Made by a program: the position numbers and the translations under genes. A DNA stretch of 64,000 nt from Balanoglossus misakiensis. Its lineage: Eukaryota; Animalia; Hemichordata. The notes under the pieces are model-generated. The model searched no databases. It saw only the letters and a program-made list of their open reading frames with translations, and was not told the origin of the DNA. The DNA is taken from assembly GCA_040954595.2 (NCBI GenBank), contig CM082588.2:4900156-4964155 (forward strand). The letters run 5' to 3'. The first letter of the stretch is position 1; the number at the start of each line of letters is the position of its first letter. Below, piece after piece: positions 12,800 to 64,000 of this stretch.

Positions 12800-14470
12800 C
12801 TACATAACATGCATTTTCTAACACTTGCCTTGTCTTTTCAGATCCCGGCTGGACTCCACTTCTTTCGATTGGTCATCAACCATTCAACAGATAGACCTGA
12901 AACGACAAGTGAATACGAGTTAAATTTCAATATTCAATATTTCAATATTTCAAAATTTGTCATGATTTACTAGAAAATTAAATAAAATACAATAAATTTC
13001 AATCCTTGGTGTCTGCGTTTTTGTAAAAAAAAAAAACACTCTATACTTATTAAAAACACTTAGACATTTTTCAGGCTTCACTCTATACTTATTAAAAACA
13101 CTTAGAAATTTTTCAGGCTATCACTCTATACTTAGACATTAAAAAACACTTAGAAATTTTTCAGGCTATCACTCTATACTTAGACATTAAAAACACTTAG
13201 AAATTTTTCAGGCTTTACTCAATACTTAGACATTAAAAAACACTTAGAAATTTTTCAAGCTATCACTCTATACTTAGACATTAAAAAACACTTAGAAATT
13301 TTTCAAGCTATCACTCTATACTTTGACATTAAAAAACACTTAGAAATTTTTCAGGCTTCACTCTATACTTATTAAAAACACTTAGAAATTTGTCAGGCTA
13401 TCACTCTATACTTAGACATTAAAAAACACTTAGAAATTTTTCAAGCTATCACTCTATACTTTGACATTAAAAAACACTTAGAAATTTTTCAGGCTTCACT
13501 CTATACTTATTAAAAACACTTAGAAATTTTTCAGGCTATCACTCTATACTTAGACATTAAAAAACACTTAGAAATTTTTCAAGCTATCACTCTATACTTT
13601 GACATTAAAAAACACTTAGAAATTTTTCAGGCTTCACTCTATACTTATTAAAAACACTTAGAAATTTGTCAGGCTATCACTCTATACTTAGACATTAAAA
13701 AACACATAGAAATTTTTCAGGCTATCACTCTATACTTAGACATTAAAAACACTTAGAAATTTTTCAGGCTTCACTCTATACTTTGACATTAAAAACACTT
13801 AGAAATTTTTCAGGCTATCACTCTATACTTAGACATTAAAAAACACTTAGAAATTTTTCAGGCTATCACTCTATACTTAGACATTAAAAACACTTAGAAA
13901 TTTTTCAGACTTCACTCTATACTTTGACATTAAAAACACTTAGAAATTTTTCAGGCTTTACTCTATACTTAAACATTAAAAACACACACTTAGAAATTTT
14001 TCAGGCTATCACTCTATACTTTGACATTAAACAAACTTAGAAATTGTTCAGGCTTTACTCTATACTTTGACATTAAAAAACACTTAGACATTTTTCAGGC
14101 TTTACTCTATACTTTAACATTAAAAAAAAATAGACATTTTTCAAGCTATCACTCTATACTTTCGCTTTAGGAAAAAACTTGGAAATGTTTCAAGCTTTAC
14201 TCTATACTTAAACAAAAATAACTTAAATTTTTTGCCCCTCTATACTTGCATTTTCTAATGCATACCTTGTCTTTTCAGATCCCGGCTGGACTCCACTTCT
14301 TTCGATTGGTCATCACCGTCATCAACCATTCAACAGATAGACCTGAAACGACAAGTGAATACGAGTGAAATTTCAATACTTTGGTTTTGTCATGATTTAG
14401 TAGAAAATGAAATAAAATACAACAAAATAAATTTCAATCCTTGGTGTCTGCTTTTTTGTAAAAAAAAAAC
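12795..14470. repeat. Direct duplication of a ~240-bp segment (about 12795-13035 and 14235-14470) flanking the minisatellite
   Basis: cttgtcttttcagatcccggctggactccacttctttcgattggtcatca..accattcaacagatagacctgaaacgacaagtgaatacgagt..tttcaatccttggtgtctg in both copies. Confidence 0.9.
13035..14240. repeat. AT-rich minisatellite, 42-48 bp units (cacttagaaatttttcaggctatcactctatacttagacattaaaaaa) with a local 138-bp trimer; degenerate copies also at ~14469-14610
   Basis: Unit starts at 13147 and 13194; 48+42+48 trimer starts at 13289, 13427, 13565. Confidence 0.95.
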
Positions 14471-14612: not shown

Positions 14613-17600
14613 CAAAGTTTGCAAAGTCAAGTATTTGTCATCTTTTGACAATTTTATTAGCTATAACCCATGAAAAATGTCCCAAAATAACAAAATCATC
14701 AAAGTTTCCTAAGTCAGGTATTTGTCATCTTTTGACAACTTTCATGAGCTATAACACATGAATAATGTCCCAACATAACAAAATAACCAAAGTTTGCAAA
14801 GTCAAGTATTTGTCATCTTTCGACAATTTTCATGAGCTATAACCCATGAAAAATGTCCCAACATGACAAAATCACCAAAGTTTGCAAAGTCAAGATTTTG
14901 TCATCTTTCGACAAATTTCATAAGCTATAACCCATGAAAAATGTCCAACAATGATAAAATCACCAAAGTTTGCAAAGTCAAGATTTTGTCATCTTTTGAC
15001 AATTTTCATGAGCTATATAACCCATGAAAAATGTCCAACAATGACAAAATCACCAAAGTTTGCAAAGTCAAGATTTTGTCATCTTTCGACAATTTTCATG
15101 AGCTATAACCCATGAAAAATGTCCAACAATGACAAAATCACCAAAGTTTGCAAAGTCAAGATTTTGTCATCTTTTGACAACTTTCATGAGCTATAACCCA
15201 TGAAAAATGTCCCAACATGACAAAATCACCAAAGTTTGCAAAGTCAAGATTTTGTCATCTGTTGACAATTTTCATGAGCTATAACCCATGAAAAATCTCC
15301 CAACATGACAAAATCACCAAAGTTTGCAAAGTCAAGATTTTGTCATCTTTCGACAATTTTCACGAGCTATAACCCATGAAAAATGTCCAACAATGACAAA
15401 ATCACCATAGTTTGCAAAGTCAAGATTTTGTCATCTTTCGACAATTTTCATGAGCTATAACCCATGAATAATGTCCAACAATGACAAAATCACCAAAGTT
15501 TGCAAAGTCAAGATTTTGTCATCTTTCGACAATTTTCATGAGCTATAACCCATGAAAAATGTCCCAACATGACAAAATCACCAAAGTTTGCAAAGTCAAG
15601 ATTTTGTCATCTTTCGACAATTTTCATGAGCTATAACCCATGAAAAATGTCCAACAATGATAAAATCACCAAAGTTTGCAAAGTCAAGATTTTGTCATCT
15701 TTTGACAATTTTCATGAGCTATATAACCCATGAAAAATGTCCAACAATGACAAAATCACCAAAGTTTGCAAAGTCAAGATTTTGTCATCTTTTGACAACT
15801 TTCATGAGCTATAACCCATGAAAAATGTCCCAACATGACAAAATCACCAAAGTTTGCAAAGTCAAGATTTTGTCATCTTTTGACAACTTTCATGAGCTAT
15901 AACCCATGAATAATGTCCCAACATGACAAAATCACCAAAGTTTGCAAAGTCAAGATTTTGTCACCTTTCGACAATTTTCATGAGCTATAACCCATGAATA
16001 ATGTCCCAACATGACAAAATCACCAAAGTTTGCAAAGTCAAGATTTTGTCATCTTTTGACAATTTTCATGAGCTATAACCCATAAAAATGTCCGAAAAAT
16101 GACAAAATCACCAAAGTTTGCAAAGTCAAGATTTTGTCATCTTTTGACAATTTTCATGAGCTATAACCCATAAAAATGTCCGAAAAATGACAAAATCACC
16201 AAAGTTTGCAAAGTCAAGATTTTGTCATCTTTCGACAATTTTCATGAGTTATAACCCATGAAAAATGTCCAACAATGACAAAATCACCAAAGTTTGCAAA
16301 GTCAAGATTTTGTCATCTTTCGACAATTTTCATGAGCTATAACCCATGAAAAATGTCCAACAATGACAAAATCACCAAAGTTTGCAAAGTCAAGATTTTG
16401 TCATCTTTCGACAATTTTCATGAGCTATAACCCATGAATAATGTCCCAACATAACAAAATCAATAAAGTTTGCAAAGTCAAGATTTTGTCATCTTTCGAC
16501 AATTTTCATGAGCTATAACCCATGAAAAATGTCCCAAAATGACAAAATCACCAAAGTTTCCTAAGTCAGGTATTTGTCATCTTTTGACAACGTTCATGAG
16601 CTATAACCCATGAATAATGTCCCAACATAACAAAATAACCAAAGTTTGCAAAGTCAAGTATTTGTCATCTTTCGACAATTTTCATGAGCTATAACCCATG
16701 AAAAATGTCCAACAATGACAAAATCACCAAAGTTTGCAAAGTCAAGATTTTGTCATCTTTCGACAATTTTCATGAGCTATAACCCATGAAAAATGTCCCA
16801 ACATGACAAAATCACCAAAGTTTGCAAAGTCAAGATTTTGTCATCTTTCGACAATTTTCATGAGCTATAACCCATGAAAAATGTCCAACAATGACAAAAT
16901 CACCAAAGTTTGCAAAGTCAAGATTTTGTCATCTTTCGACAACTTTCATGAGCTATAACCCATGAATAATGTCCCAGCATAACAAAATAACCAAAGTTTG
17001 CAAAGTCAAGATTTTGTCATCTTTCAACAATTTTCATGAGCTATAACCCATGAATAATGTCCCAACATGACAAAATCACCAAAGTTTGCAAAGTCAAGAT
17101 TTTGTCATCTTTCGACAATTTTCATGAGCTATAACCCATGAAAAATGTCCAAACATGACAAAATCACCAAAGTTTGCAAAGTCAAGATTTTGTCATCTTT
17201 CGACAATTTTCATGAGCTATAACCCATGAAAAATGTCCAACAATGACAAAATCACCATAGTTTGCAAAGTCAAGATTTTGTCATGTTGGGACAATTTTCA
17301 TGAGCTATAACCCATGAAAAATGTCCCAACATGACAAAATCACCAAAGTTTGCAAAGTCAAGATTTTGTCATCTTTCGACAATTTTCATGAGTTATAACC
17401 CATGAAAAATGTCCAACAATGACAAAATCACCAAAGTTTGCAAAGTCAAGATTTTGTCATCTTTTGACAACTTTCATGAGCTATAACCCATGAATAATGT
17501 CCCAACATGACAAAATCACCAAAGTTTGCGAAGTCAAGATTTTGTCATCTTTCGACAATTTTCATGAGCTATAACCCATGAAAAATGTCCAACAATGATA

Positions 17601-20600
17601 AAATCACCAAAGTTTGCAAAGTCAAGATTTTGTCATCTTTTGACAATTTTCATGAGCTATATAACCCATGAAAAATGTCCAACAATGACAAAATCACCAA
17701 AGTTTGCAAAGTCAAGATTTTGTCATCTTTCGACAATTTTCATGAGCTATAACCCATGAAAAATGTCCAACAATGACAAAATCACCAAAGTTTGCAAAGT
17801 CAAGATTTTGTCATCTTTTGACAACTTTCATGAGCTATAACCCATGAAAAATGTCCCAACATGACAAAATCACCAAAGTTTGCAAAGTCAAGATTTTGTC
17901 ATCTTTTGACAACTTTCATGAGCTATAACCCATGAATAATGTCCCAATATGACAAAATCACCAAAGTTTGCAAAGTCAAGATTTTGTCACCTTTCGACAA
18001 TTTTCATGAGCTATAACCCATGAAAAATGTCCAACAATGATAAAATCACCAAAGTTTGCAAAGTCAAGATTTTGTCATCTTTTGACAATTTTCATGAGCT
18101 ATAACCCATAAAAATGTGCCAAAATGACAAAATCACCAAAGTTTGCAAAGTCAAGATTTTGTCATCTTTCGACAATTTTCATGAGTTATAACCCATGAAA
18201 AATGTCCAACAATGACAAAATCACCAAAGTTTGCAAAGTCAAGATTTTGTCATCTTTCGACAATTTTCATGAGCTATAACCCATGAAAAATGTCCAACAA
18301 TGACAAAATCACCAAAGTTTGCAAAGTCAAGATTTTGTCATCTTTCGACAATTTTCATGAGCTATAACCAATGAATAATGTCCCAACATAACAAAATCAC
18401 TAAAGTTTGCAAAGTCAAGATTTTGTCATCTTTCGACAATTTTCATGAGCTATAACCCATGAAAAATGTCCCAAAATGACAAAATCACCAAAGTTTCCTA
18501 AGTCAGGTATTTGTCATCTTTTGACAACGTTCATGAGCTATAACCCATGAATAATGTCCCAACATAACAAAATAACCAAAGTTTGCAAAGTCAAGTATTT
18601 GTCATCTTTCGACAATTTTCATGAGCTATAACCCATGAAAAATGTCCAACAATGACAAAATCACCAAAGTTTGCAAAGTCAAGATTTTGTCATCTTTCGA
18701 CAATTTTCATGAGCTATAACCCATGAAAAATGTCCCAACATGACAAAATCACCAAAGTTTGCAAAGTCAAGATTTTGTCATCTTTCGACAATTTTCATGA
18801 GCTATAACCCATGAAAAATGTCCAACAATGACAAAATCACCAAAGTTTGCAAAGTCAAGATTTTGTCATCTTTCGACAACTTTCATGAGCTATAACCCAT
18901 GAATAATGTCCCAGCATAACAAAATAACCAAAGTTTGCAAAGTCAAGATTTTGTCATCTTTCGACAATTTTCATGAGCTATAACCCATGAATAATGTCCC
19001 AACATGACAAAATCACCAAAGTTTGCAAAGTCAAGATTTTGTCATCTTTCGACAATTTTCATGAGCTATAACCCATGAAAAATGTCCAACAATGACAACA
19101 TCACCATAGTTTGCAAAGTCAAGATTTTGTCATGTTGGGACAATTTTCATGAGCTATAACCCATGAAAAATGTCCCAACATGACAAAATCACCAAAGTTT
19201 GCAAAGTCAAGATTTTGTCATCTTTTGACAATTTTCATGAGCTATAACCCATGAAAAATGTCCAACAATGACAAAATCACCATAGTTTGCAAAGTCAAGA
19301 TTTTGTCATGTTGGGACAATTTTCATGAGCTATAACCCATGAAAAATGTCCCAACATGACAAAATAACCAAAGTTTGCAAAGTAAAGATTTTGTCATCTT
19401 TCGACAATTTTCATGAGCTATAACCCATGAAAAATGTCCCAACATGACAAAATCACCAAAGTTTGCAAAGTCAAGATTTTGTCATCTGTTGACAATTTTC
19501 ATGAGCTATAACCCATGAAAAATCTCCCAACATGACAAAATCACCAAAGTTTGCAAAGTCAAGATTTTGTCATCTTTCGACAATTTTCACGAGCTATAAC
19601 CCATGAAAAATGTCCAACAATGACAAAATCACCATAGTTTGCAAAGTCAAGATTTTGTCATCTTTCGACAATTTTCATGAGCTATAACCCATGAATAATG
19701 TCCAACAATGACAAAATCACCAAAGTTTGCAAAGTCAAGATTTTGTCATCTTTCGACAATTTTCATGAGCTATAACCCATGAAAAATGTCCCAACATGAC
19801 AAAATCACCAAAGTTTGCAAAGTCAAGATTTTGTCATCTTTCGACAATTTTCATGAGCTATAACCCATGAAAAATGTCCAACAATGACAAAATCACCAAA
19901 GTTTGCAAAGTCAAGATTTTGTCATCTTTCGACAACTTTCATGAGCTATAACCCATGAATAATGTCCCAGCATAACAAAATAACCAAAGTTTGCAAAGTC
20001 AAGATTTTGTCATCTTTCAACAATTTTCATGAGCTATAACCCATGAAAAATGTCCAACAATGACAAAATCACCAAAGTTTGCAAAGTCAAGATTTTGTCA
20101 TCTTTCGACAATTTTCATGAGCTATAACCCATGAAAAATGTCCAATAATGACAAAATCACCAAAGTTTGCAAAGTCAAGATTTTGTCATCTTTCGACAAT
20201 TTTCATGAGCTAAACCCATGAATAATGTCCCAACATGACAAAATCACCAAAGTTTGCAAAGTCAAGATTTTGTCATCTTTCGACAATTTTCATGAGCTAT
20301 AACCCATGAAAAATGTCCCAAAATGACAAAATCACCAAAGTTTCCTAAGTCAGGTATTTGTAATCTTTTGACATATTTCATGAGCTATAACCCATGAATA
20401 ATGTCCCAACATGACAAAATAACCAAAGTTTGCAAAGTCAAGATTTTGTCATCTTTTGACGACTTTCATGAGCTATAACCCATGAAAAATCTCCCAACAT
20501 GACAAAATCACCAAAGTTTGCAAAGTCAAGATTTTGTCATCTTTTGACAATTTTCATGAGCTATAACCCATGAAAAATCTCCCAACATGACAAAATCACC

Positions 20601-21101
20601 AAAGTTTGCAAAGTCAAGATTTTGTCATCTTTCGACAATTTTCATGAGCTATAACCCATGAATAATGTCCAACAATGACAAAATCACCAAAGTTTGCAAA
20701 GTCAAGATTTTGTCATCTTTCGACAATTTTCATGAGCTATAACCCATGAAAAATGTCCCAACATGACAAAATCACCAAAGTTTGCAAAGTCAAGATTTTG
20801 TCATCTGTTGACAATTTTCACGAGCTATAACCCATGAAAAATCTCCCAACATGACAAAATCACCAAAGTTTGCAAAGTCAAGATTTTGTCATCTTTCGAC
20901 AATTTTCACGAGCTATAACCCATGAAAAATCTCCCAACAATGACAAAATCACCAAAGTTTGCAAAGTCAAGATTTTGTCATCTGTTGACAATTTTCACGA
21001 GCTATAACCCATGAAAAATGTTATAAAATGACAAAATCACCAAAGTTTGAAAAGTCAAGAATTTGTCATTTTTTTTAATTCTCATGAAAAATGTCCAACA
21101 T
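14613..21101. repeat. Satellite array, 88-bp palindromic monomer, about 73 copies
   Basis: Monomer catgacaaaatcaccaaagtttgcaaagtcaagattttgtcatctttcgacaattttcatgagctataacccatgaaaaatgtcccaa; period 88 (for example 15568 to 15656). Confidence 0.97.
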
Positions 21102-49566: not shown

Positions 49567-51756
49567 TTAAGCCGGATATTTTCCGCCCTTTCTCGGTTTG
49601 TCTGGTTTTGCATACATTTCATCGAGTGTTTTGTTTGCTGTTGGCCCGCTGCTATCCGTGGCATACGCATGTGCAGTGACTTTTCCAGGCCGTTGAGCAC
49701 CTCTTGTAGTCTCGCGACTGTTCACCCCTTTCGATTGTCCACCTTCTTCGTTCGTCTCGCTGGCATTGTCCACATTTGGCCTTCCGACCTTTTCATCTCC
49801 ATGTCGTTGTCGTGAATCAACCATAGCCCTTCCATCAAACGTCTCGTATTCCTCACCTGCGCGGTAGGATGGGTTGAAAATAGCGGTGCCGTCAGCACTT
49901 TCGTAGGCTATGTTCTCCCGCGAGTACAAAGCAAGGTCATCAACACTTTCATACGCTATATTCTCTGTAGAATACGCGCTTGGGTCAGCCTCGGGTGTTT
50001 TGCTTTTGATTGCCGTACTCTCTGTATCAGTGACAGTTTCAGGTCGTTGGTGATCTACATTCCCCTGGTCACTGAGCTCTGACAATTGTTCGCCCTCATA
50101 ATTTATTATGTTGGCTTCGTCTGCGTTTTGATTTGAGGCAAATTCTTCCCCTTTCCCTTGATCTCCTGAACGTGAACTCACCACAACTTCCCTACTGAAC
50201 GCCTCGTATTCATTACCTACATGGCTTGCACCTACTGAAGTCCCATATGCACCTTCGTAGGCTATGTTCTCACGAGAATACAAGACATGGCCATCGGCGC
50301 TTTCTTGCGGCAAATTCGCTCCAGAATCCGCGTTTTGGTCCGATTGGCTCGGAGTTGCCATGATGTTTACTTGGATATGTTGGTTCAGTACAACTTCAGT
50401 ATTTCCTCGTGGGGTTTTTCTCTGTCTAGATTTTAGGATGCAGACGACCAAAATTGTGACGATCAACAGAATTAAAAGACCAAGTCCACCAGCGGCTGAG
50501 GCAATGATCAGTGTATTATTATCATTAGTCATCGAATTTCCGCCCATGGTCACAGTTGTTTCAGTGTGGTCATTTCTATTCCCCGTCACATGCTGCAGTG
50601 TAGTGTGCTTAATTGAGACCATGGAAGAATCTTTGTATGCTGACCAATCAGTTGATATTGGCAATTTTGTTGTAGTTGGTGTTGATTTTGAGTGTGGTGT
50701 TGCTATGTTGACCAACAAAAACCCCGATGCAGTTCTGGAACTGAAACCGTAATCCACAACACACTTAACAGTAACATTGTATTGGCATGCTGTGTTTTCG
50801 TCCATGCAGGTGAAATCACTGAACTGTAAGGAGGAATTGTTTGTCATATATTGAACTTGAAAATTCTCAGCGTTGTCTATTTCCCATCGATAAACAGTGA
50901 CCCCGTACTCTCTAGAACTTTGGCAAGATACAGTCACCACAAGGCCGTGGAAATTTATTTCAGTTACTTCCGGGTAGATCTTTACAGTAGGGTCGTCATA
51001 CACAGTAATGGGTCCCAATGTACAGAATTTGTTATCTTGTCCCGACTGTGACAGACGACAACTATACTCTGTCCCATTTTCTTCAACTGACAAATCCAAT
51101 ATATAGTCATGAATTGGATACACGTCAAAACTGAGGCCAGGTTGAACCCAGGTGCTCAGTGTTGTATCGTTGTTTCGCGTCCAAAATAACAGGACAGCTG
51201 GTTTTCCGGGATCAGACCGACACCTCAATGTAACGCTGTCTCCTTTGAAGTATTCATGTGCGTTACCGTGGAAACGTATTCCATTCACAGTGTGGTCACA
51301 AATAGGGTATTGTTGTCTTGGAATGACTCTGGTGTTAACAACTACCTCAGTTGATTCAATAACAGCACTATTGCCCGTCATTACCTTACACTGATAGCGA
51401 CCACTGTCTTTATACGCCTGCAGGGCTGAGAACGGCTGTATTTGCAGATTGTATGTGCCCACAATGCGGTATCGTATATGGTCAATCAACTCAGCTACTG
51501 ATTCGTCAGTACTTATTCTGCCATTTTCACTTATTGGCAAATTGTTCTTAAACCACGACACCTTCTGACCCGCCTCTAAGTTACTCACTTCGCATCGCAG
51601 GTAGATAGAGGAAGTTGACTCGGATCCATAGACCAGCGTTGTAGTAGAGCTGCTGGGCTGCACATCAAAAGTTGGAGTTGACTTGACAGACCCCAGTATC
51701 ATACCGCAGTACAAATACCTGATCCATGTATGGACGCTAGTGTGTCTAGGATGCAT
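49567..51756 (-). CDS. Single-exon 3-Ig receptor with a long tail carrying repeated YSxENIAYE motifs, about 729 aa
   Basis: ORF 49567..51894; start MHPRHTSVHTWIRYLYCGMILGSV shared with paralog; Ig motifs YLRC..VSW..DSGRYQC, LRCRSDPGKP..W..YSC, VSC..YRW..VKC; TM IIASAAGGLGLLILLIVTILVVCIL. Confidence 0.9.
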   Translation of the reverse strand: MHPRHTSVHTWIRYLYCGMILGSVKSTPTFDVQPSSSTTTLVYGSESTSSIYLRCEVSNLEAGQKVSWFKNNLPISENGRISTDESVAELIDHIRYRIVGTYNLQIQPFSALQAYKDSGRYQCKVMTGNSAVIESTEVVVNTRVIPRQQYPICDHTVNGIRFHGNAHEYFKGDSVTLRCRSDPGKPAVLLFWTRNNDTTLSTWVQPGLSFDVYPIHDYILDLSVEENGTEYSCRLSQSGQDNKFCTLGPITVYDDPTVKIYPEVTEINFHGLVVTVSCQSSREYGVTVYRWEIDNAENFQVQYMTNNSSLQFSDFTCMDENTACQYNVTVKCVVDYGFSSRTASGFLLVNIATPHSKSTPTTTKLPISTDWSAYKDSSMVSIKHTTLQHVTGNRNDHTETTVTMGGNSMTNDNNTLIIASAAGGLGLLILLIVTILVVCILKSRQRKTPRGNTEVVLNQHIQVNIMATPSQSDQNADSGANLPQESADGHVLYSRENIAYEGAYGTSVGASHVGNEYEAFSREVVVSSRSGDQGKGEEFASNQNADEANIINYEGEQLSELSDQGNVDHQRPETVTDTESTAIKSKTPEADPSAYSTENIAYESVDDLALYSRENIAYESADGTAIFNPSYRAGEEYETFDGRAMVDSRQRHGDEKVGRPNVDNASETNEEGGQSKGVNSRETTRGAQRPGKVTAHAYATDSSGPTANKTLDEMYAKPDKPRKGGKYPA

Positions 51757-51866
51757 TCTGCAGTGTATAATCTCCTCTGTGTATGAGCCAACACCGTGAA
51801 AGTTCCAGAACATGGCATATACGTGTTGATGGTGCCAAATACCTGGTAGCTTCGGGTTTATGAGGT

Positions 51867-51880
51867 CACTTTTACTTCCG
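51867..51880 (-). promoter_or_regulatory. ETS site / ETS-IRF composite-like motif CGGAAGTAAAAGTG just 5' of a putative 5'-UTR intron (51842-51758); identical copy near 54214-54226
   Basis: Motif and cag|gtattt..ctgcag|aATG arrangement conserved in both duplicated receptors; one mismatch from GGAAnnGAAA. Confidence 0.35.
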
Positions 51881-52409
51881 TGAACCGGGTACACAATAGT
51901 CTATTAAAGGTCACAAAACCATAGATATGTAGATTGGAGTTATTCAACTCTCACGGCAAACTTTATTGTTTGAAAGCGAGTCGCTAAAAATAACAGCATA
52001 CCAGTTACACGCGACCAATTGAATTGTTGGCTGATAGTTGGTAACTTTCACCATTGCCTGTCAATTTTGGTAAGTGGTCAACGCAAGGGTTCGTCAGATT
52101 TCATCAGCTGTTGTTGTATGATTGACAGTAACCTTCTTGCATGTCCCGGTCGGTCGGATGGATTAAAAGATGAGCTTTTCGCTTCCTTCCTTTGTCATGA
52201 TCGCACAGTGAATTCAGTGAATAACTAAAACTAGTGCATATGCGGTGTAGCTGTTCAAATCCGCAGTGCAATTTGAAGATCAGAAATCTCTAGGATAATA
52301 TTAAAACAGAGAAAATCTATCACAACAAAATCTAGCCCGATTTTGGATATTAATCTGCAAAACTCTATAATATTTTCATTCGGGCCTACACAGTTTCCTG
52401 CTTAAATCA

Positions 52410-54104
52410 TTATTTCCCACCATCCTCCCGATTCAAATGCGCATACTCAGTGTTTTCCTCAGATCGCTTTATATTCAAATTAGTGTATCCGTCCTCGCCA
52501 ATCATGTGTTGGTCTGTGTCCGAATTTTGGCCGCCGGCCTGACCCAGGTGAGCGTATGTTGATTGAAGACTTTCTTCCGGATGTTTGGCAGTCAAATTAG
52601 CGTAACCATCCTCTCCTATAATGTTCTGTACCACTGTTACATTTTTGTCATGTACCTGACTTAAGTGGGTGTACTCAGACTCGGTTTCTTCAGGTCGTCT
52701 CAAGGTCAAATTAGTATATCCATCCTGGTCAGTCATTTCTTGGTCAACTTCTTCTTGTTTGTGTTCGTGTTTTCGTTTTCTTATTCTGACGATGTACACG
52801 ACAAGTATAATTACAAGTGTAATGGCAAGGAGAAAACCTATGACGACAGCAACAACTGTCACTGTGTTTGAAAAGCTGGGGTTGTTGCCAAATTGGCCAG
52901 ACTTCAGGGTGGATGACGTAATTGGGCTGGGCGATTGTTGCTTATCCATCGTCCGCTCAGGCTGTGGTCCCTGTGGAATACTGAGCGATGGCCGTATATT
53001 AACCGTCGACGTTGGCAACGTTGATGTAGTTGGTGCTGATGTTGACTGTGATGATATGTTGACAAACAAAAACCCATATGCAGCTCTGGAACTGAAACCA
53101 TAATCCACAACACACTTGACAGTAATATTGTATTGGCACCTTATATCGGCCCTGCAAGTGAAATCACTGATCTGTAGGGTTTTATTATTTGTCAGATATT
53201 TAACTTGAAAATTCTCAGCGTTGTCTATTTCCCATCGATAAACAGTGACCCCGTGGTCTCTAGAACTTTGGCAAGATATAGTCACCACAAGGTCGTGGGA
53301 ATTTATTTCAGTTACTTCCGGGTGGATATTTACAGTGGGGTCGTCATACACAGTAATTGGTCCCAATGAACAGAATTTGTCATCTTGCCCTGACTGTGAA
53401 AGACGACAACCAAACTCTGTTCCATTTTCTTCAACTGACAAATCCAGTGTGTAGTTATGAGTTGGATACACGTCAAAATTGTTGCCAGGTTGAAACCAGT
53501 AGCTCAGTGTGGTATCGTTGTTTCGCGTCCAAAATAACACGACAGTTGGTTTTCCTGGGTCAGACAGACACCTCAGTGTAACGTTGTCTCCTTTGAAGTA
53601 TTCATGCATGTTTCCGTGGTAAAGCATTCCATTTACAACTTGGTCACAAATAGGATATCGTTGTCTTGGAATGACTCTGATGTTAACAACTGCCTCAACT
53701 GATTCAATAACAGCACTATTGCCCGTCATTACCTTACACTGATAGCGACCACTGTCTTTATACGCCTGCAGGGCAGAGAACGGTCGTATTTGTAGATTGT
53801 AAGCTCCTTCAATGCTGTATCGAGTATGGTCAATCAACTCAGCTACTGATTCGTCAGTACTTATTCTGCCATCTTCACTTATTGGCAAATTGTTTTTAAA
53901 CCATGACACCTTCTGACCTGCCTCCAAGTTACTCACTATACATCGCAGGTAGATAGAGGAAGCTGACTCTGATCCATAAACCAACTCTGCAGACCAGCTG
54001 TTCGGCTGATGCACAAAAGTTGGCATTGAGTTGACAGACCCCAGTATCATACCGCAGTACAAATACCTGATCCAAGTGTGGACGCTAGTGTGTCTAGGAT
54101 GCAT
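52410..54104 (-). CDS. Single-exon 3-Ig receptor with three ITAM-like units, about 564 aa
   Basis: ORF 52410..54185; ectodomain nearly identical to 49567-51756; TM VTVVAVVIGFLLAITLVIILVVYIV; tail YTNL-x11-YTHL, YANL-x12-YAHL, YTNL-x10-YAHL. Confidence 0.92.
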   Translation of the reverse strand: MHPRHTSVHTWIRYLYCGMILGSVNSMPTFVHQPNSWSAELVYGSESASSIYLRCIVSNLEAGQKVSWFKNNLPISEDGRISTDESVAELIDHTRYSIEGAYNLQIRPFSALQAYKDSGRYQCKVMTGNSAVIESVEAVVNIRVIPRQRYPICDQVVNGMLYHGNMHEYFKGDNVTLRCLSDPGKPTVVLFWTRNNDTTLSYWFQPGNNFDVYPTHNYTLDLSVEENGTEFGCRLSQSGQDDKFCSLGPITVYDDPTVNIHPEVTEINSHDLVVTISCQSSRDHGVTVYRWEIDNAENFQVKYLTNNKTLQISDFTCRADIRCQYNITVKCVVDYGFSSRAAYGFLFVNISSQSTSAPTTSTLPTSTVNIRPSLSIPQGPQPERTMDKQQSPSPITSSTLKSGQFGNNPSFSNTVTVVAVVIGFLLAITLVIILVVYIVRIRKRKHEHKQEEVDQEMTDQDGYTNLTLRRPEETESEYTHLSQVHDKNVTVVQNIIGEDGYANLTAKHPEESLQSTYAHLGQAGGQNSDTDQHMIGEDGYTNLNIKRSEENTEYAHLNREDGGK

Positions 54105-54933
54105 TCTGCAGTGTATAATCTCCTCTGCGTAAGTGCCAACACGACAGAGTTCTTGAATATGGAATATACGTGTTGATGGTGCCAAATACCTGATAGCTTC
54201 GGGTTTATGAGGTCACTTTTACTTCCGTGAGGTTACCACACAATGGACATGTAAATAGTTTTCAACTGTACACTCAAGTCAAACTTTGCTGGTTGAAAAC
54301 GCGTGGCTAATAAATAACAGCAAGCTGGGCCAGTACAAATAAAATTGCCAAGGACATTTTAAAAGTTGCAGATCCAGATTGGCGACATCGACGCCGAAAA
54401 TGGTCGAATATTTGAAGACATCTGGCGCATGGTCTTTGTAGATGAAGACCGGTTGTGTAAACAGTCATCTACCACTTCTCCCATCAGGCAATTTTACTGC
54501 TAAAATGCCATTTATATACATGGGCTTATATGATGGCAGGGTGGGCGTCCCTCACCTGATCATGCGGTACATGATCAGATGATCAGTGCATCATCACACC
54601 AGCCAGATCGCAGACGTGGCGGAAGTCTCTCCTTAAACCAGTGAAATAAGGTGAGAAGTTAGATTTACCAGTTTCCTGGGATTAAAGGACTTAATTTAGA
54701 TTGCAAAGACGGACGAAAATTGGCCAATTTGTGCGAGTCCACTGGGCGTGCCAGCCACTTCTTTTCCCATCCCATCAAATTCACATATGGTTTAAGAGTA
54801 GTGATGTCTTTGAAGCCGGAAACATGCAGTGTAGACATCTCTTCGTCGTTTCTAGAAACTGTTTCATTTACTGAGACAATAGTGCAAAGATCTTTTTGTC
54901 TTCTCCAGCAAGTGTTTTTGTTTGACTGGAGCA

Positions 54934-57900
54934 ATGCTGCAGTTTGACGACGTCTTGAAGCACTTGCTCGGCGAATTCGGCAAGTACCAGTTTATGGTGT
55001 GCCTGCTGGTAGCCCCGGCGGCGATCTTCCAGGCGTGTCAGGTGGTCTCCTCGGTGTACATCTTGGCGGAGACCCAGTCGTGGTGCAAAGTCCCCGACGC
55101 CGAGGTTCTGCGAGGGGCGTTCTGCACGGGCGCCGGCAGCAAGGAGTGCGCAGGGCTGCTGAGAAACCTGACCGTCCCGCAGGAGGCGACGGGCGTTGGG
55201 TGTGGCGCGACGTCTGCATTGAGTCAGTGCTACAGATACAACATCACCGCGGATGACATCGTGCATTCGCTCGCAAATGACGTCTCTCTGTATGCCAATG
55301 CCACAACGATTGCATGTGACCATGGATGGGAATATGACACATCGCAGTACCAATCAACCGTGGCCCAACAGGTATTATTAACGTTAATTTATAAATAATT
55401 TGTTCAATTATTGGTAAAAAATAAATGCATGCTGAATTCGGCTAAAGTGGTAGGTAGTGCCTGTAACATGCGCTTCAAATTGATATGAAATGTCGCCCGG
55501 CCTAAGCAAATGCTTGTACATGTATGTATATAAAGCCAACGTACATATAGGTATTTTCGAAAGATATCAGAATAGAACCGTGTGGTTCGCTATGCCACAA
55601 ATGTATCTTTAATAATTATGGGAGAAGTAAAGTATATTTTACCGGCGCAGAATCGCGTCGATGATAACTTGTCTTTGGCGAAGACTGTAGGGTTACGGTT
55701 AAGTCGAAAATGCAGGGCAAAACGTTATTATAGACATCACTTAAGAAGACTGAATCACTCTGCCTCAGCCAGTTCTGTAAATGATTTTTGCCTCCTTTCC
55801 AGTTTGATCTAGTATGTGACCAGAAATATTTAACTTCGCTGTCCACGTCACTTATGATGCTGGGAAAGTTAGTTGGATCAAGCTTATTTGGAGTAGTTTC
55901 AGACAGGTTTGTATTATGTTAATAATAATGATGATGATGATAATGATGATGATGATGATGATGATGATGAGGAGGAGGAGGAGGAGGAGGAGGAGGAGGA
56001 GGAGGAGGAGGAGGAGGAGGAGGATTTCAGTCTCGTATTTGCTCGTCATGTAATGTATCACCACTCTGCATGTCAATAACATACAATACTTTTTCAGGTC
56101 AATAACATACAATACTTTTTCAGGTTTGGGCGGAAACGTGGTTTCATGATGGGAATAATTCTGACGTTGGTGTTTGGAATAGTGTGCGCTTTTTCACCGA
56201 CTCTCACATTTTTTGTAATTGCCCAATTCTGCATTGGCGTTTTCTCAATGTGCGTCGGCATAGGTGCTTTCGTTACAGGTAATGTATGGTTCAAACTTCA
56301 GTGTGGCTGTTAGGATTTCACTTCAGTTAGTTAAAGCATCGAGTGGCCTTCTGGGAAAGTCGTCACCATTTTGTTGGATGTTAGATAGTTTCCTATTTCA
56401 CCTGTCTTCCGTAGATAATTTGTTATTAAGAGCTTTACGTTTCACCTGTCACATTTTCCCGCAATTTGCATATTCAGTGACAGAATTTCTCGGGCCATCC
56501 AAGCGGGCCGCAGGGGGACTATTGACCGGTGTGTGTTTCGGGATAGGAATCATGATCTTGTCATTGTGTGCGTACTACATCCGGGTATGGTGGATTCTAC
56601 AACTGGCCATTTCCCTTCCTTGTGTGGTTTTACTCGGCTTTTCGTGGTAAGAGTTGTTTTTACTAAATAACATTCCCTACTAAGTGACTGAATGATAACG
56701 GGGAGCGTGGAGTGATACAAACAGAATGAAAATGGGGGTGAGGAAGAGAGAGGGAGGGCGAAACAGACAGAACGGAGGAACAGGGAGGGAGAAGGTTGAA
56801 GGGGAGACATGACGAAGGGAGGAGGGAGAGAGGTGTGGGGGACGGAGGGAGTGAGAGGCGCTTGTAAAGGAGGGATGGAGTTGAGATGAGAGAGGGAGAT
56901 AGCGACAGGGAGGGAAGGTGGGATGAGGGAGACATGGAGGGAGAAAGAGCTTCATTTCAACTCGATTTTGTCACAGGATTATTCCAGAATCTCCGAGGTG
57001 GTTAATCTCCAAAGGGAAAGACAAGGAAGTCGACGAAATTATAAGAAAGTGGGGACGCATAAATGGGAAGTCGATGCCCGATGACATATTTAACGAGGAA
57101 TGGAATCCGGACAAGCCAACTCAAATGAAATTGAAGGTATCAGATTTACGTTTAAGTGCATGGTCACTACGGGGAGATTATTAGGGCCATTGTGTCTTTT
57201 TCTTTCGTTTGCGCATGTTTTTCCCCAATGATTTTAGCAACTGTTAGGCAAAATGATCAACGCAAAAGTATTATGTATTGTGCTGCACGACCTGGAGAAA
57301 ACGCAGCAAAAGTCAAGCGGATTGCTAAATCGTAGACTTCATACAGCATATGTATTACACTATGTTTGTACATGTAGGGGACAGCTGGGGAGAAGAATAC
57401 GTTCAATGAAATGCTAGATCTCGTCAGACTGCCAAACATGAGAAAGAAGACTTTTCTATTGATGTATTGCTGGTAATGTGCGACTTTTAAAATATAAGAT
57501 GTATTTAGCACTTCTTTTTATATCTGACTATCTGCCCTGGAGACTAAAAGTCCATCCATACCAAAATAACCAAGGTATTAAAAAGCCAAAAAATCTTGGT
57601 TTAATTATGTTTCTGCGTGTCAAATTCTGACAATTAGTTTGTTTGGTCTCGTCTCCTGCACAGGGTTGCAATAACTTTGGTCTACTATGGTTTGATATTT
57701 AACACATCTAACCTCGCCGGCAGTGATTATCTCAATGGTTTTCTGTCCGGCGTCGTCGAGATCCCAGCTTGTATCATCTCTCTACCTATCATCGAATGGC
57801 GAAGGCTTGGACGACGATTGTCCATGTTCTACACCCTAGTCATCGCCGGGGTAACTTGTATATGTTCGGCGTTTGTACCTCAATGTGGGTAACAATTATT

Positions 57901-58958
57901 CTTTGGGGTTAAATGTCTTTCTAAATAAACACAGGCTTATAAAAACACAAAATGCCAGCCATATGTTTCACTAGGCAAATGCGTTATTTCGGAACTGAGT
58001 TTATTTTTGTAAACAATCTCCAAACCCCAGCTCAAAAATAGGAAATGTTTGATGATTCCATATATAATTTCACTCTTATTCTCGCTTCTGTAAAAAAAAA
58101 CAGCACGTGTCACCCTCCCTCTAGGAGAAGTTTGTAAAATTTGACCCCCTCCCCAATTCACCCAGCCTACTCGCTCGTTATAAATAAAAGCTTCCCAGGG
58201 TATACATTTGATCATGCCCAACACTCTTGCTCCATCAGGTGGAGAACTGGAGTGGTTGGGCATCGTTCTTACATCGATCAGCAAATTGTCTATCTCCTGT
58301 GCATTTAACATCGTATATATCTACTCTGGCGAACTATTCCCGACACCTGTCAGGTAAGAAGGGTAATGTGGTGGCTATTTAATGAAACTAATAATGGCAA
58401 AATTACGCCGGGGTCATCGAGCCAACAGGAAACATTAACAGATAATATATTAGTCTAATAATCTTTTTTTATAAATGATTAGCTTTTCATGTAAAAAAAA
58501 TCGGTGCTTATGATGCATGGCACACATAACTGTTTTTCTACACGATTTTCAGATCAACTGGTATCGGTGTGTGTTCAACATCCGCACGCATTGGAGGGAT
58601 TTTGGCACCGCAGTTCCTGTTAATGGCCGATGTCTGGGCAAAACTACCACCTCTCGTCTTTGGGGGCGCTGCCGTTATCGCGGGAGTCGCCAGCCTCCCC
58701 CTCCCAGAGACTCGGGGCGCTTACCTGCCTGAAACCATGGAGGAAGGGGAGAAATTTGGCAGGTGCGTCTCTCTCTCTCTCTCTCGCCCTCTATCTATCT
58801 CTCCCCACTCTCTCCACCATGTTGTTTGTTTGTTTGTTTGCTTGTCCAATACAGTTATTATTGTAAATGACCACGTTTACATTTGTGTTATTCACAGGAA
58901 ACCCAAGCGACAAAAGTTAAAAACAACAATGGTCGATACTCAATCGGGGGATTTATAA
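54934..58958 (+). CDS. SLC22 organic ion transporter paralog A, 575 aa; exons 54934-55371, 55803-55906, 56124-56278, 56478-56646, 56977-57136, 57378-57472, 57664-57884, 58239-58353, 58553-58762, 58898-58958
   Basis: FDDVLKHLLGEFGKYQ; CDHGWEYD..STVAQQFDLVC; SDRFGRK; PESPRWL; ELFPTPVR; LPETRG..LPET; phases consistent (1728 nt). Confidence 0.93.
55920..56024. repeat. Compound (GAT)n(GAG)n microsatellite in SLC22-A intron 2
   Basis: Directly visible trinucleotide runs. Confidence 0.95.
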
Positions 58959-59600
58959 CTCAGCCAGCGTTGCTGCTACGCCGGCCAATGGGACGAATTT
59001 GTGCTGAAGATCTTCTCAACTAACGCTTGTTGTGATACACTGAATAAGGAGCTGGCTTGGTGCCTTGGTGAAAATGACATCGCTCAACAATGAATAAATA
59101 GAGTGCACACTCAAAAATATAAAAAGGAGTCATTCCTGACATTTATGGGCTAACAACGTAAATTAAATACATGTGGTGTTGCATCTGTCCAGGTTCAGTT
59201 TCTATGGCTCTTATTCATTCTCGAAGAATGCAGTTTGGAAAGGTTTTCATATTTTTGTTACAGGACATTTAGTTTAATGGAAAACGGTATGAAAATTTGA
59301 CACCATTGTTGCTTGTTGGAAAAGATACTTTTGGCCTTTTTTCTCATCCCCTTTTCGTGTTTTATGACAGAACCGGTTTGTACCGGTATTTAAACATGTT
59401 TTACAAGGCACCCTGAGTCTATTTTTATTATTGATCTATATATAATTTATTTTAACTTTTTAAAGAGAATGTTCATGCGAATAGTTTCATCTATTCACTG
59501 ACATATAGTAGGGGTATTAACTTCTGTTCACCTTCTTTCTGGCGATTTCAATACAGCAGATTTATACCCTAATTCAAACTTTCTAGTTACAATACAAGCA

Positions 59601-62600
59601 ATGCTGCACTTTGACCAGGTGTTAATGAACAATGTTGGCGAATTCGGCAAGTACCAAGTAACGGTTTTCATCCTACTCGGCATCGCGGCCTCGCTGCTAT
59701 CACAGCAGCCGTTGACACCTCTGTTCATGTTGGCGGAAACCGATGCCTGGTGCAGCCTTCCCGGCGGGGAAGAGCTGCGCGATGAGGTCTGCAGGGGAAA
59801 CGGCACCGCCGAGTGCGTTCAGATGGTGAAACGCCTGGCCATCCCGACAGAGCAAGTAGATGTCGGATGCGGCGTGGCTGCAAGGTTCAGTCAGTGCCAC
59901 AGATACAACATCACCGGGGACGATATCGTGTACGCGCTGGCAAATGGCGTCACTTCTCATGCCAATATCTCAACGATAGCATGCGACAGTGGATGGGAGT
60001 ATGACAGGTCACAGTACAAATCTACGGTTAACCAACAGGTATGCTAATTACAATATTCCTAGTATGAAGCAAGATCAGTAAGTATGACTGTTAGACACTG
60101 ATAAGTTGATAACCAAAGACCCAACACAACACATTGAATGAAACAGTCCCCTACTCCACATGGGATTAATATAATTTTACACCGGCGTATAATATCCATA
60201 GAAAGACGGTAAAAAATCAGTCGCTGTTTTAAAAGAAGACTATCATAGGGACATTTTTGCTTTATTATTCAGTTTGATCTGGTATGCGACAAAAAATATC
60301 TGGTGCAATTTCCAAACACGATGTTTTGGGCTGGAGTTTTTGTTGGGGCATGTGTCATAGGAGTAATCTCGGACAGGTAATAGTTAAACGTTCTTTCATG
60401 ATGCACCATTTAAGCCTTATTTTGCAAAGTGCTCGTTTTTCAGCAGAATATTAGAATTGCAGGTTTATTGCAGTAATTTTAACTTCTTTCAGATTTGGAC
60501 GGAAACGTGCTTTCTTCATAGCGATGACGCTTTCCACCGCCTTTGGAATAATGTCCGCCTTTTCACCAAACTACCTTTTCTTCGCAATTGCTCGTTTCTG
60601 TACCGGGGCGTTTGGATTTTGTGGCTACGTGGCGTCGTTTATTATGGGTAAGGTAAATTGTATTGATTGTTTTAATTTAATTCTAACGTGGTCGTTGAAA
60701 CTCTACGGCAAACTTTCGTCAATGCCTTTCTCCCTGCATGTACCAAAACAACGAAAATACGACTGAAATACGTTCCCTGTGGTTATTCCAGCTACAGAAT
60801 TTGTTGGACCGTCCAAACGACACACAGCTGGGTTGGTCTACCCAATGTTTTTCTCGGCCTCTTTCATGATTTTGTCCCTGGAAGCCTACTTCATCCGGGA
60901 ATGGTGGATCCTAGAGCTGGTTGCTTCCCTTCCAGTTCTCTTGCTATTCCCCTATTGGTGGTAAGTATGTGTGTATACATTATACATACATGCATGCATG
61001 CGTACATGCGTGCGTACGTATGTGCGTGTATCTGTTTCAAGACCAAGTGTACAATCATTTAGGAACAAAAGTTCATAGTCCGTTTTGTATGACTGATAAT
61101 AGGATCATTCCCGAGTCTCCGAGATGGCTGTTGTCCAAAGGGAGGAAGGAAGAGGCAGAGAAGATAATCCGACGATGTTGTCGCATCAATGGAAGACCTG
61201 TTCCCGATAACGTGTTCAGCGACTCGCTGAACCCGGATAAAGCTTCTGAAGTCGAACCCATGGTAAAAAGCACTTCAAAAATTCACCACAATATTTAATA
61301 AGTTTTCCTTGTATGTTTTCTGCATGTTATCAGTTGGCAAGGACTAATGACCATGATACTGCTGTATAGTATTAACAAAATGGTTCATCATCTTGTCCAA
61401 CAAGACAATTTCTCTGACAAGTTCCTAATGTAACCCATGCTATGTTTGAATCCAAGATAAGACACCGTCAGCTTTCGTTCGCAGGAGAAAAGACAGCGCA
61501 ATAAAATGTTCCACGAAATAATGGACCTTCTCCGGCTGCCGAACATGAGAAAGAAGACGCTGATTGCGTGCTTCTACTGGTAAGTATGTCTATCATCGAA
61601 CCAGCACAGCTCTCCTGTTGTTACCAATGAACAGTTTTCTGCCCAGTGTTAAACGTTATTTTGTTGTCACTGGGAATTTCAAAGACTGACTGAAATAGCA
61701 GTTTCAGAGCAAATACATTTGTAATTGCAAGTGAAGGTTTACAACTTCCTAATTTTTACCAATTCTGACTATTTTTACAACTTAATTTTCTTTACGCCAG
61801 TTTTCTTTCACTGAAAATTAACGTCCTCCTTTCTACAGGAGCGTGGTATCCTTGGTGTACTACGGGCTCACGTACAATACATCCAATCTCGGTGGCAGTG
61901 ATTACATCAATTGCTTTCTATCCGGAGTGGTCGAAATTCCGGTTTACATTTTCGCTATATGTATTATGGACTGCCGAAGAATTGGGCGGCGATGGTCCAT
62001 CTTCTGTGTGACGATGATTAGCGCCCTCACGTGTGTTGGCTCTGCTTTCTTTCCTCCATGTAGGTTTGTGAGAATCAATATGGTGAAATAAAACGTCATG
62101 CTCCATGTCCAGGTTTCTTTTTTATAGAAATCAAGAAATTTTCAACAAATATTGAATGTTTGGAGGCTGAATTAAGTCACGACTTTTACTTGGAGCAGAA
62201 CCCTCATCATGTAACTTTATATATAAAGGAGAGGTAATGCCCGCAACTAAACCAGGATGGTTTCATTTTTAGGTGGAAAACTGGTGTGGGTTGGTATTAC
62301 GCTTTCTATCGCAAGCAAGGCTTTCATATCCGGGGCATTCAGCATGATTTATGTCTTCACGAGTGAGCTGTTCCCGACATCTGTCAGGTAAGGAATTAGA
62401 GTCAGGTTCATTGTGCAAGGGTTTACCCTCAGCTAGACTCAGCTATGTTATCTGGTGGGGTTAAATAAAAAACTAGAACTAAGTCCAGGAATTTACTGCG
62501 TAACGCGTGATTTCACTTCACAGGTCAACTGGGGTTAGTCTATGTGCAATGTGTTGTCGAATTGGAGGCATGTTGGCTCCACAGTTCCTATCGATGGCCG

Positions 62601-63006
62601 ATGTCTGGGCGCAGCTGCCCGCTGTCGTGTTTGGGGGCGCTTCTGTTCTAGCTGGAGTCGCAATTCTCTTTCTACCCGAGACCCGGGGGAAATGTTTGCC
62701 CGAAACTATGGACGAGGCGGAACAATTCGGCAAGTATGTATTCGTGCTGTCGGGTGCAGCAATGTATTTTAATGATAAAACAAAGCACGGAAAGAAATGC
62801 TTCGATCCATGCGAAGGAATGGTGGTTTGATCACCGTATACATTTGTAAGCTCTGTTTATCATAGATTAATCTCATGTATTTCCTATTTGTTTAATTACC
62901 TATCTTTTTCTTGTTTAGGAAACCACTGAAGCCTAACCACATGGACTATTGTGGCGGAAAGATAAGAATGGTTGAAATGGAGGAAGCACCCATTGTATCC
63001 ATTTAG
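59601..63006 (+). CDS. SLC22 organic ion transporter paralog B, 584 aa; exons 59601-60038, 60273-60376, 60493-60647, 60792-60960, 61103-61262, 61485-61579, 61839-62059, 62273-62387, 62524-62733, 62919-63006
   Basis: Same motifs as paralog A and identical sizes for the first nine exons (438,104,155,169,160,95,221,115,210); 1755 nt. Confidence 0.93.
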
Positions 63007-63421: not shown

Positions 63422-64000
63422 CTATCTTTGCAATGAAGTGTATTGATCTTCCTCTCGGGAATGTAAGTCTAACTTTTGATAATTTTCATGCTCGCTGGTT
63501 CCGCCTGAATTGGGGTTTTCATATGCACCATCTACGCTGTCTGGTATGTTAACCATTTGGAGATGTGAAGTATTCGCACCTTGAGGACACTTGTCCTGAC
63601 ATTCTTCGTAGTTGCTGTTAGCATGTGACGATGTGCCATCTGCACGCCTCTTTCTAATGATTATAAAGAGCCAACCGAACAATAGTGTCAGTAGTGACCC
63701 GAATACAAATGATCCCACTATGCCTCCGACCATCTGTGCTGTACTGTACGATGTGGAACATTTCCCCTGTACACACGGCAGACATTGTTCATTTAGATCG
63801 GTCGTTATGTGGCTTGTAACACTCTCCGCCCGTGTACCTGAAATTGTTGTTGTAGTGTCGTCTGTGGAATCTGTGGGTAGTACCAATTCTATGACACTTG
63901 TAGCAATACCTATACCGATCCCATTATCAGCAATGCACATGATTTCATGGTTCATTCCTTCACTGATGTCAAACCCCATAATCTCCAGAGTCATGTTATT
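63422..64000 (-). CDS. 3' part of an Ig-superfamily receptor with a C-terminal ITAM-like motif; N-terminus beyond the right edge
   Basis: Frame open to base 64000; Ig F/G strands HEIMCIADNGIG; T-rich stalk; TM MVGGIVGSFVFGSLLTLLFGWLFIII then RKRR; tail AYENP and ENYQKL-x9-YTSL. Confidence 0.8.
   Translation of the reverse strand, partial: NNMTLEIMGFDISEGMNHEIMCIADNGIGIGIATSVIELVLPTDSTDDTTTTISGTRAESVTSHITTDLNEQCLPCVQGKCSTSYSTAQMVGGIVGSFVFGSLLTLLFGWLFIIIRKRRADGTSSHANSNYEECQDKCPQGANTSHLQMVNIPDSVDGAYENPNSGGTSEHENYQKLDLHSREEDQYTSLQR

What the first reader, a model, noticed from the sequence alone, without database searches (positions are those of the whole stretch)
49567..54320. Tandem receptors with near-identical ectodomains but unrelated TM and tails (tail swap)
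Seen: ~50650-52000 and ~53005-54320 (offset about 2348) are highly similar from the upstream region through signal peptide and three Ig domains to the start of the stalk (STPTTTKLPIST vs SAPTTSTLPTST). Similarity then vanishes inside one continuous exon: different stalk, TM and tail (about 290 versus 120 aa). Established: this is the signature of paired receptors kept similar by duplication or gene conversion (e.g. Siglec-5/14, FcgRIIA/B/C). Inference: the same ligand class is wired to different outputs by intra-exonic recombination in the S/T stalk.
Basis: partly seen in the sequence, partly recalled or inferred. Interest (0 to 1): 0.82.

Follow-up and report, generated by a model that had tools for sequence, protein, structure and literature searches.

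The report
Twin Ig receptors, swapped signalling tails
Two neighbouring genes, likely from an acorn-worm-like marine animal, encode cell-surface proteins whose outer three Ig domains are 80% identical but whose inner tails are unrelated, one tail carrying three repeats of an activation-type tyrosine motif, so they likely bind similar ligands and are predicted to send different signals, like the paired receptors of vertebrate immune cells.

Summary
Real, with corrections. Two open frames (A 49567-51756, B 52410-54104, minus strand) share a 1.35-kb block from upstream DNA through three Ig domains: 85.5% nt, 80% aa, so similar rather than near-identical. Cytoplasmic tails (288 and 125 aa) do not align. 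Contigs from the same sample bridge both junctions with no mismatch, so an assembly chimera is unlikely. B's tail holds three tandem YxxL-x(10-12)-YxxL pairs (broad-definition ITAMs). A's tail has no YxxL, three YSxENIAYE repeats and a single ITIM match, so the inhibitory partner of a classical pair is not shown. Nearest named relatives are hemichordate and echinoderm Ig receptors at about 25-30% identity. In this family tails usually stay alignable at 40-45% ectodomain identity, which argues against fast tail drift; Ptychodera flava shows an older, second mismatch of ectodomain and tail. Best reading: partial gene conversion or unequal crossover put one ectodomain type on two older stalk-TM-tail modules. 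The principle is known (Siglec-5/14, FCGR2C, Hydractinia Alr2/Alr30, Botryllus Fester); the lineage, apparently intronless layout and triple long-spacer ITAM were not found in print. No expression, ligand or signalling data.

The parts
49567..51756 (-). Gene A: signal peptide, 3 Ig domains, 63-aa stalk, TM, 288-aa tyrosine-rich tail; 729 aa from the ATG shared with B (frame is open up to an ATG at 51813)
52410..54104 (-). Gene B: signal peptide, 3 Ig domains, 63-aa stalk, TM, 125-aa tail with three ITAM-like pairs; 564 aa
50658..51998 (-). Shared block, copy A (about 240 nt upstream DNA through start of stalk); junction at about 50658
   Evidence: junction bridged by contigs with 0 differences
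53012..54322 (-). Shared block, copy B; junction at about 53012
   Evidence: junction bridged by contigs with 0 differences
50704..51678 (-). Ig domains 1-3 of A
   Evidence: 81% identical to the folded B segment
53055..54026 (-). Ig domains 1-3 of B
   Evidence: AlphaFold2 pLDDT 94; Foldseek matches are tandem-Ig adhesion proteins at 12-21% identity
51352..51426 (-). Longest identical run between A and B (75 nt), over the EF-F-G part of Ig domain 1; possible recent conversion tract
   Evidence: P=0.009 on all coding columns, P=0.09 on third positions; 0 synonymous codon changes in 35 codons
50434..50514 (-). TM helix of A, no charged residue
52788..52865 (-). TM helix of B, no charged residue
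52662..52724 (-). B tail ITAM-like pair 1 (DGYxNL, spacer 11, YxHL)
52545..52610 (-). B tail ITAM-like pair 2 (spacer 12)
52434..52493 (-). B tail ITAM-like pair 3 (spacer 10)
   Evidence: the three units are DNA repeats 75-86% alike
50248..50280 (-). A tail YSxENIAYE repeat 1
49894..49974 (-). A tail YSxENIAYE repeats 2 and 3; repeat 2 holds the only ITIM-consensus match (IAYESV)

Best explanation
A and B are two tandem three-Ig receptor genes whose upstream DNA and ectodomain were likely homogenised by partial gene conversion or unequal crossover, while their likely older stalk-TM-tail halves stayed distinct, so that a likely similar ligand is predicted to trigger two different phosphotyrosine outputs. 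Shown: the shared block, the abrupt junction, the unrelated tails and the motifs. Inferred: on clustering, Src-family phosphorylation of B's three YxxL pairs would recruit a Syk-type tandem-SH2 kinase (first tyrosines are also YxN, Grb2-type), making B activating, probably in coelomic or epithelial defence cells. A's acidic YE repeats would dock other SH2/PTB adaptors; whether that dampens or redirects the signal is open. The junction likely sits in the stalk because that is where a crossover in an apparently intronless gene leaves Ig folds and reading frame intact (inference).
For: Block and junction. Junctions in contigs. Control against tail drift: among the 23 family pairs with ectodomain identity of 40% or more (118 proteins with a TM and a tail of 40 aa or more, out of 153), 16 have tail z of 4 or more; A/B has the highest ectodomain identity (81%) and the lowest tail z (-1.4). 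Second case in one named species: P. flava P0010 and P0030, ectodomain 50% identical, tail z -0.2, ITIM tail versus YxN-repeat tail, while P0010's tail aligns at about 40% with the window gene at 3022-4980. B tail: all 6 tyrosines are YxxL; 0 of 20000 shuffles give three pairs. Ig domain 1: 9 of 22 residues differ in the first strands but 5 of 69 in the C-C'-C'' and EF-F-G segments, the face that binds ligand in related folds (recalled). Old paralogy: equal stalk length, weak TM likeness. Exchange hint: a third sequence type over 50750-50883 has A's letter at 8 listed sites, B's at 6 plus B's 3-nt gap, and 2 letters of its own. Precedent: PMC4042635, PMC11659932, PMC5112662, PMC12582321, 10.1101/2022.03.04.482883 (passages).
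Against: Clustering of third-position differences is not significant (P=0.09 by both tests), and the 0-of-35 segment was picked from seven after the fact. dS 0.23 means no recent sweep over the whole block. With three sequences the third always matches one of the other two, and the variant tables were cut (40 of 430 and 40 of 43 rows shown), so mosaicism is only a hint. B's spacers (10-12) miss the narrow ITAM definitions (6-8 or 6-9) and its acidic run has 2 of the 3 hemITAM acids. A has one ITIM match among 14 tyrosines. 5 of 21 family pairs at 40-60% ectodomain identity also have tail z under 3, so loss of tail likeness is not unique to proven swaps. Neither tail was found on another ectodomain, so donor and direction are unknown.
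Confidence: 0.6

Rival explanations
1. A single partial duplication placed the 5' half of one gene on the 3' half of another family member, with no later exchange; the pair is a chance chimera rather than a maintained pair.
For: Abrupt junction with no fall-off before it; third-position differences are fairly even along the block; dS is similar in the three domains, 0.18-0.27.
Against: Both junction types occur in a second, 14-16% divergent version in the same sample, so both genes are old enough to have diverged copies; dN/dS 0.46 shows constraint; 75-nt identical run.
Confidence: 0.2
2. The origin is as above but the proteins are adhesion or neuronal recognition molecules (nectin, CADM, Kirrel or DIP type), not immune receptors; the tyrosine repeats serve adhesion signalling or endocytosis.
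For: Automatic names of relatives are CADM-, Kirrel-, nectin-like; best structural matches are DIP, nectin, Necl, Robo.
Against: Those matches are generic tandem-Ig hits at 12-21% identity; fast turnover (no relative above about 30% over the ectodomain), divergent second copies and ITAM/ITIM-type tails across the family (19 and 32 of 139 TM proteins by relaxed patterns, 9 rows redundant) are typical of immune receptors (established knowledge).
Confidence: 0.13
3. Whole-gene tandem duplication followed by very fast divergence of stalk, TM and tail.
For: Stalk length and TM position are collinear; disordered tails evolve fast in general.
Against: At dS 0.23 the DNA behind the junction would still align; it does not (best hits E 0.7 or worse; 20-28% in register). 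Family tails mostly align at far lower ectodomain identity.
Confidence: 0.04
4. One copy is an assembly or haplotype chimera.
For: The region is very heterozygous and no listed contig spans the whole pair; the runs are one sample.
Against: Both junctions and the intergenic link are bridged with 0 differences in X1, both junctions also in X2, and each junction type has a second divergent version.
Confidence: 0.03

Closest known systems
Siglec-5/Siglec-14 and Xenopus Ceacam pairs (PMC4042635, PMC5112662; passages read)
   Same: Adjacent Ig genes with similar ligand-binding parts and different signalling ends, kept alike by partial gene conversion.
   Different: There the conversion follows exon borders or the first domains and one partner has a clear ITIM; here the block covers upstream DNA and all three domains in one open frame, identity is only 80%, and no clear ITIM partner is shown. 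No homology beyond the Ig fold.
FCGR2A/2B/2C (PMC11659932; passages)
   Same: A chimeric receptor made by unequal crossover, joining the outer part of one gene to the signalling part of another; intrinsic ITAM in the tail (a long spacer in FcgRIIa is recalled, not from a call).
   Different: Multi-exon genes with both parents present; here neither donor was found and B has three motif pairs.
Hydractinia Alr2/Alr30 and the Alr family (10.1101/2022.03.04.482883; passages)
   Same: Invertebrate Ig receptors in clusters; Alr30 lies next to Alr2 with a similar extracellular region and an unrelated tail; ITAMs and ITIMs in family tails.
   Different: Each Alr domain has its own exon and Alr1/2 have a shown role in allorecognition; no function is shown here and homology to Alr was not tested.
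Botryllus Fester family and FcoR (PMC12582321; passages)
   Same: Ectodomains and intracellular domains mixed by intergenic recombination in an invertebrate deuterostome; ITIM and hemITAM tails.
   Different: Multi-exon genes, signalling on a co-receptor, hemITAMs rather than tandem full pairs; tunicate lineage.
Hemichordate and echinoderm 'CADM/Kirrel-like' predicted proteins (e.g. XP_070550467.1, XP_070567630.1, XP_077866871.1)
   Same: Same three-Ig, stalk, TM layout; A and B fall in an 11-row group (SH-like 98, FastTree) whose 7 named members are all Ptychodera or Saccoglossus, plus 2 unnamed rows.
   Different: Only 25-30% identical; tails do not align with A or B; uncharacterised, names are automatic.

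Membership tests
Paired immune receptors (definition from PMC3533184) | Very similar extracellular regions | tested here: met
   296 of 369 aa identical
Paired immune receptors | Genes in a small cluster | tested here: met
   Tandem, 412 nt from B's stop to A's block; link bridged by a contig
Paired immune receptors | One member activating (ITAM or charged TM residue for an adaptor) | tested here: met
   By motif only: three YxxL pairs in B; no charged TM residue in either
Paired immune receptors | One member inhibitory (ITIM) | tested here: inconclusive
   A has one consensus match (IAYESV) in one of three repeats; the other two end in A
Paired immune receptors | Shared ligand, overlapping expression, opposite signals | not testable with these tools
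   Needs expression data and binding or signalling assays
Paired immune receptors | Gene conversion over the ligand-binding part | tested here: inconclusive
   75-nt identical run P=0.009 on all columns, P=0.09 on third positions
ITAM, broad definition (two YxxL 6-12 apart, PMC3576117) | Spacer 6-12 | tested here: met
   Spacers 11, 12, 10
ITAM, narrow definition (spacer 6-8 or 6-9) | Spacer 6-9 | tested here: not met
   All three spacers are longer
hemITAM (PMC3576117) | Three acidic residues at -4, -3, -2 before YxxL | tested here: not met
   Two of three are acidic in each repeat (DQDGY, GEDGY, GEDGY)
Nectin/CADM/Kirrel adhesion families | Orthology to a named family rather than a generic three-Ig layout | tested here: inconclusive
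   Generic hits at 12-21% structural-alignment identity across many Ig families

The most novel reading that the evidence does not exclude
Acorn worms and echinoderms have their own fast-evolving, intronless immunoreceptor family in which ITAM-, ITIM- and YxN-type tails are shuffled under ectodomains by recombination in the stalk; this locus, with copies 14-16% apart within one animal, is a polymorphic self/non-self recognition pair, the ambulacrarian counterpart of KIR, Alr and Fester.
Probability: 0.2. Interest if true: 0.8.

Novelty: new variant of a known kind. Interest (0 to 1): 0.5.

Why it matters
Paired-type Ig receptors are described in vertebrates, tunicates and cnidarians; none turned up for hemichordates or echinoderms in the searches run here (the library lacks most subscription papers and supplements were not read). 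A concrete pair with a three-ITAM tail gives a testable entry to ITAM/Syk signalling in the sister group of chordates, and an apparently intronless family shows that tail swapping does not need exon shuffling. The mechanism itself is not new, and the immune role is inferred.

Tried and rejected
No whole genome is held, so family-wide recombination tests and a search for Syk, SHP or Csk genes could not be run. Word-index searches with B (6382 candidates, none at E 0.001) and with A's tail (3341 candidates, none at E 0.01) found nothing; only near-length proteins were searched. The profile search of alignment A1 returned 5 hits, one a member of the alignment and four generic Ig proteins. No RNA holder listed. 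The Atlas search of B gave generic Ig clusters at 0.91-0.93; the search of A's tail did not complete. The homodimer prediction for B domains 1-2 gave no verdict. Loose ends in run X2 were not taken as new junctions: several end in GATC-type letters, as in proximity-ligation libraries (recalled). Contig depth was not used as copy number. Earlier scan findings: none returned. A gene-E translation was in the wrong frame; its ectodomain and tail entries there were not used, and it was corrected. Papers: passages only of PMC12582321, 10.1101/2022.03.04.482883, PMC3576117, PMC3533184, PMC5112662, PMC4042635, PMC11659932, PMC11999971 (no hemichordate or paired-receptor mention) and PMC10210618 (no ITAM, ITIM or Syk mention); other papers were seen as listings only.

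Full report
Observation. The window holds two long minus-strand frames, A (49567-51756 from the ATG shared with B) and B (52410-54104). They share one block, 50658-51998 vs 53012-54322, 85.5% identical over 1347 columns, from about 240 nt upstream of the start through three Ig domains to the first residues of the S/T-rich stalk, where identity drops from 0.85 to background. At protein level 296 of 369 residues match, dS 0.23, dN 0.11. AlphaFold2 on a 77-row alignment gives three beta-sandwich domains at mean pLDDT 94. The tails are 288 and 125 aa and do not align (score 31, shuffles 40.1+-6.8). Stalks are both 63 aa and the TM regions show a faint likeness that does not stand out from the family (ranks 4 and 7 of 126).

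Artefact check. Contigs of three runs from one sample were laid on the region. Both junctions are bridged with no difference in X1 and X2, and the intergenic link in X1. Each junction type also has a second version: 34 differences in 250 nt for A-type, 55 in 346 nt for B-type. Whether these are alleles or further paralogues cannot be told from contigs. For comparison a downstream non-coding contig differs at 22 letters plus 43 gap letters in 437. The runs are not independent of the assembly's sample and no listed piece spans the pair.

Tails. All six tyrosines of B are YxxL and form three repeated pairs with spacers 11, 12 and 10; 0 of 20000 shuffles give three pairs. This meets the broad ITAM definition (6-12; PMC3576117), not the narrow ones, and the acidic run before each first tyrosine has two of the three hemITAM acids. 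The first tyrosines are also YxN, a Grb2-type motif noted beside ITAMs in Xenopus Ceacams. A has 14 tyrosines, no YxxL/I, three YSxENIAYE repeats and one ITIM-consensus match. Likeness of these to PTB-binding NxxY motifs, and of the terminal YAKP to Csk-binding motifs, is recalled and untested. Neither TM has a charged residue.

Family. A full HMMER search with B found 193 proteins at E 0.001 or better, mostly 25-30% identical, 150 listed. Of 30 looked up, 24 clusters carry names: Ptychodera, Saccoglossus, Glandiceps, Antedon, Anneissia, Holothuria, Acanthaster, Patiria, Amphiura and one fish CD22-like protein. In a FastTree tree of 77 ectodomains A and B sit in an 11-row group (SH-like 98) whose named members are hemichordate; the source is therefore likely a hemichordate, which is an inference. 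Many relatives carry ITAM-like or ITIM-like tails by relaxed patterns. The window itself has a four-Ig gene with three ITIM matches in its tail at 3022-4980, about 25% identical to A and B.

Is it a swap? Among family pairs with 40% or more ectodomain identity, 16 of 23 keep alignable tails; A/B has the closest ectodomains and the least similar tails. At dS 0.23 a whole-gene duplicate would still align as DNA behind the junction and does not. P. flava P0010 and P0030 show the same pattern at greater age (50% ectodomain, ITIM tail versus YxN-repeat tail), and P0010's tail is shared with the window's gene at 3022-4980. So halves of different ancestry are well supported. Ongoing conversion is only hinted: a 75-nt identical run over the F-G strands of domain 1 (P=0.009 on all columns, 0.09 on third positions), few changes on the C-C'-F-G face against 9 of 22 in the first strands, and a third sequence type lying between A and B. 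No donor of either tail was found.

Mechanism. Most likely, two older family members had their upstream DNA and ectodomain homogenised, giving likely co-regulated receptors for a similar ligand. B would activate through a Syk-type kinase; A would dock other adaptors, sign unknown. The structural halves are shown; ligand, expression, phosphorylation and partners are inferred.

Known systems. Partial conversion between Siglec-5 and -14, the unequal crossover that made FCGR2C, Xenopus Ceacam pairs, Hydractinia Alr30 beside Alr2 and ectodomain-tail mixing in Botryllus Fester genes are the same principle. It works like a paired receptor; membership is not established because the inhibitory partner and shared ligand are not shown. 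Eight literature searches aimed at hemichordate or echinoderm cases listed none; the library is partial and supplements were not read.

Verdict. A real feature, a known evolutionary device, in a lineage and gene layout where it seems undescribed, with a striking triple ITAM-like tail. New variant of a known kind; interest 0.5.

Noticed in passing
window 3022-4980 (-): Open frame for a four-Ig receptor with three ITIM-consensus motifs in the tail; 44% ectodomain and about 40% tail identity to P. flava XP_070568247.1.
   Followed up: partly
window 6601-7455 (-): TM plus tail frame with two duplicated ITIM pairs, related to the tail of the gene at 3022-4980, with no Ig domains found upstream by tblastn: a left-over 3' half, an ITIM adaptor, or spliced to unseen exons.
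   Followed up: partly
window 1-1587 (-): Another multi-Ig, stalk, TM open frame, 29% identical to its neighbour; the tail runs off the window.
   Followed up: no
window 63422-63994 (-): S/T stalk, TM and a tail ending in YxxL-x9-YxxL (63431-63481); any extracellular part would lie beyond the window end.
   Followed up: no
window 52856-52951 and 49571: Contigs show a B-type version that skips 94 nt of the stalk (letters between not known) and an A-type version with a 15-nt insertion at the very end of the tail.
   Followed up: no
window 50182 and 49859 (-): Two strong splice-donor-like sites inside A's tail; alternative tails are possible.
   Followed up: no
proteins P0068, P0078, P0088, P0096, P0106, P0109, P0142, P0149 and kin: A 19-row group (SH-like 99) of related three-Ig receptors, the three looked up being unnamed, many ending in a single ITAM-like pair.
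   Followed up: no
window 13052-14214 and 14613-21073: Satellite arrays: 48-bp unit (25 copies) and 88-bp unit (73 copies, 93% matches).
   Followed up: no
window 24319-47000 and 54934-63000: Ordinary neighbours: claudin-like, GNAT, Trp/Tyr-tRNA synthetase and OSCP1 exons by Pfam; duplicated exons after 54934 look like SLC22 transporters (recalled; Pfam gave no hit on the two first exons).
   Followed up: no
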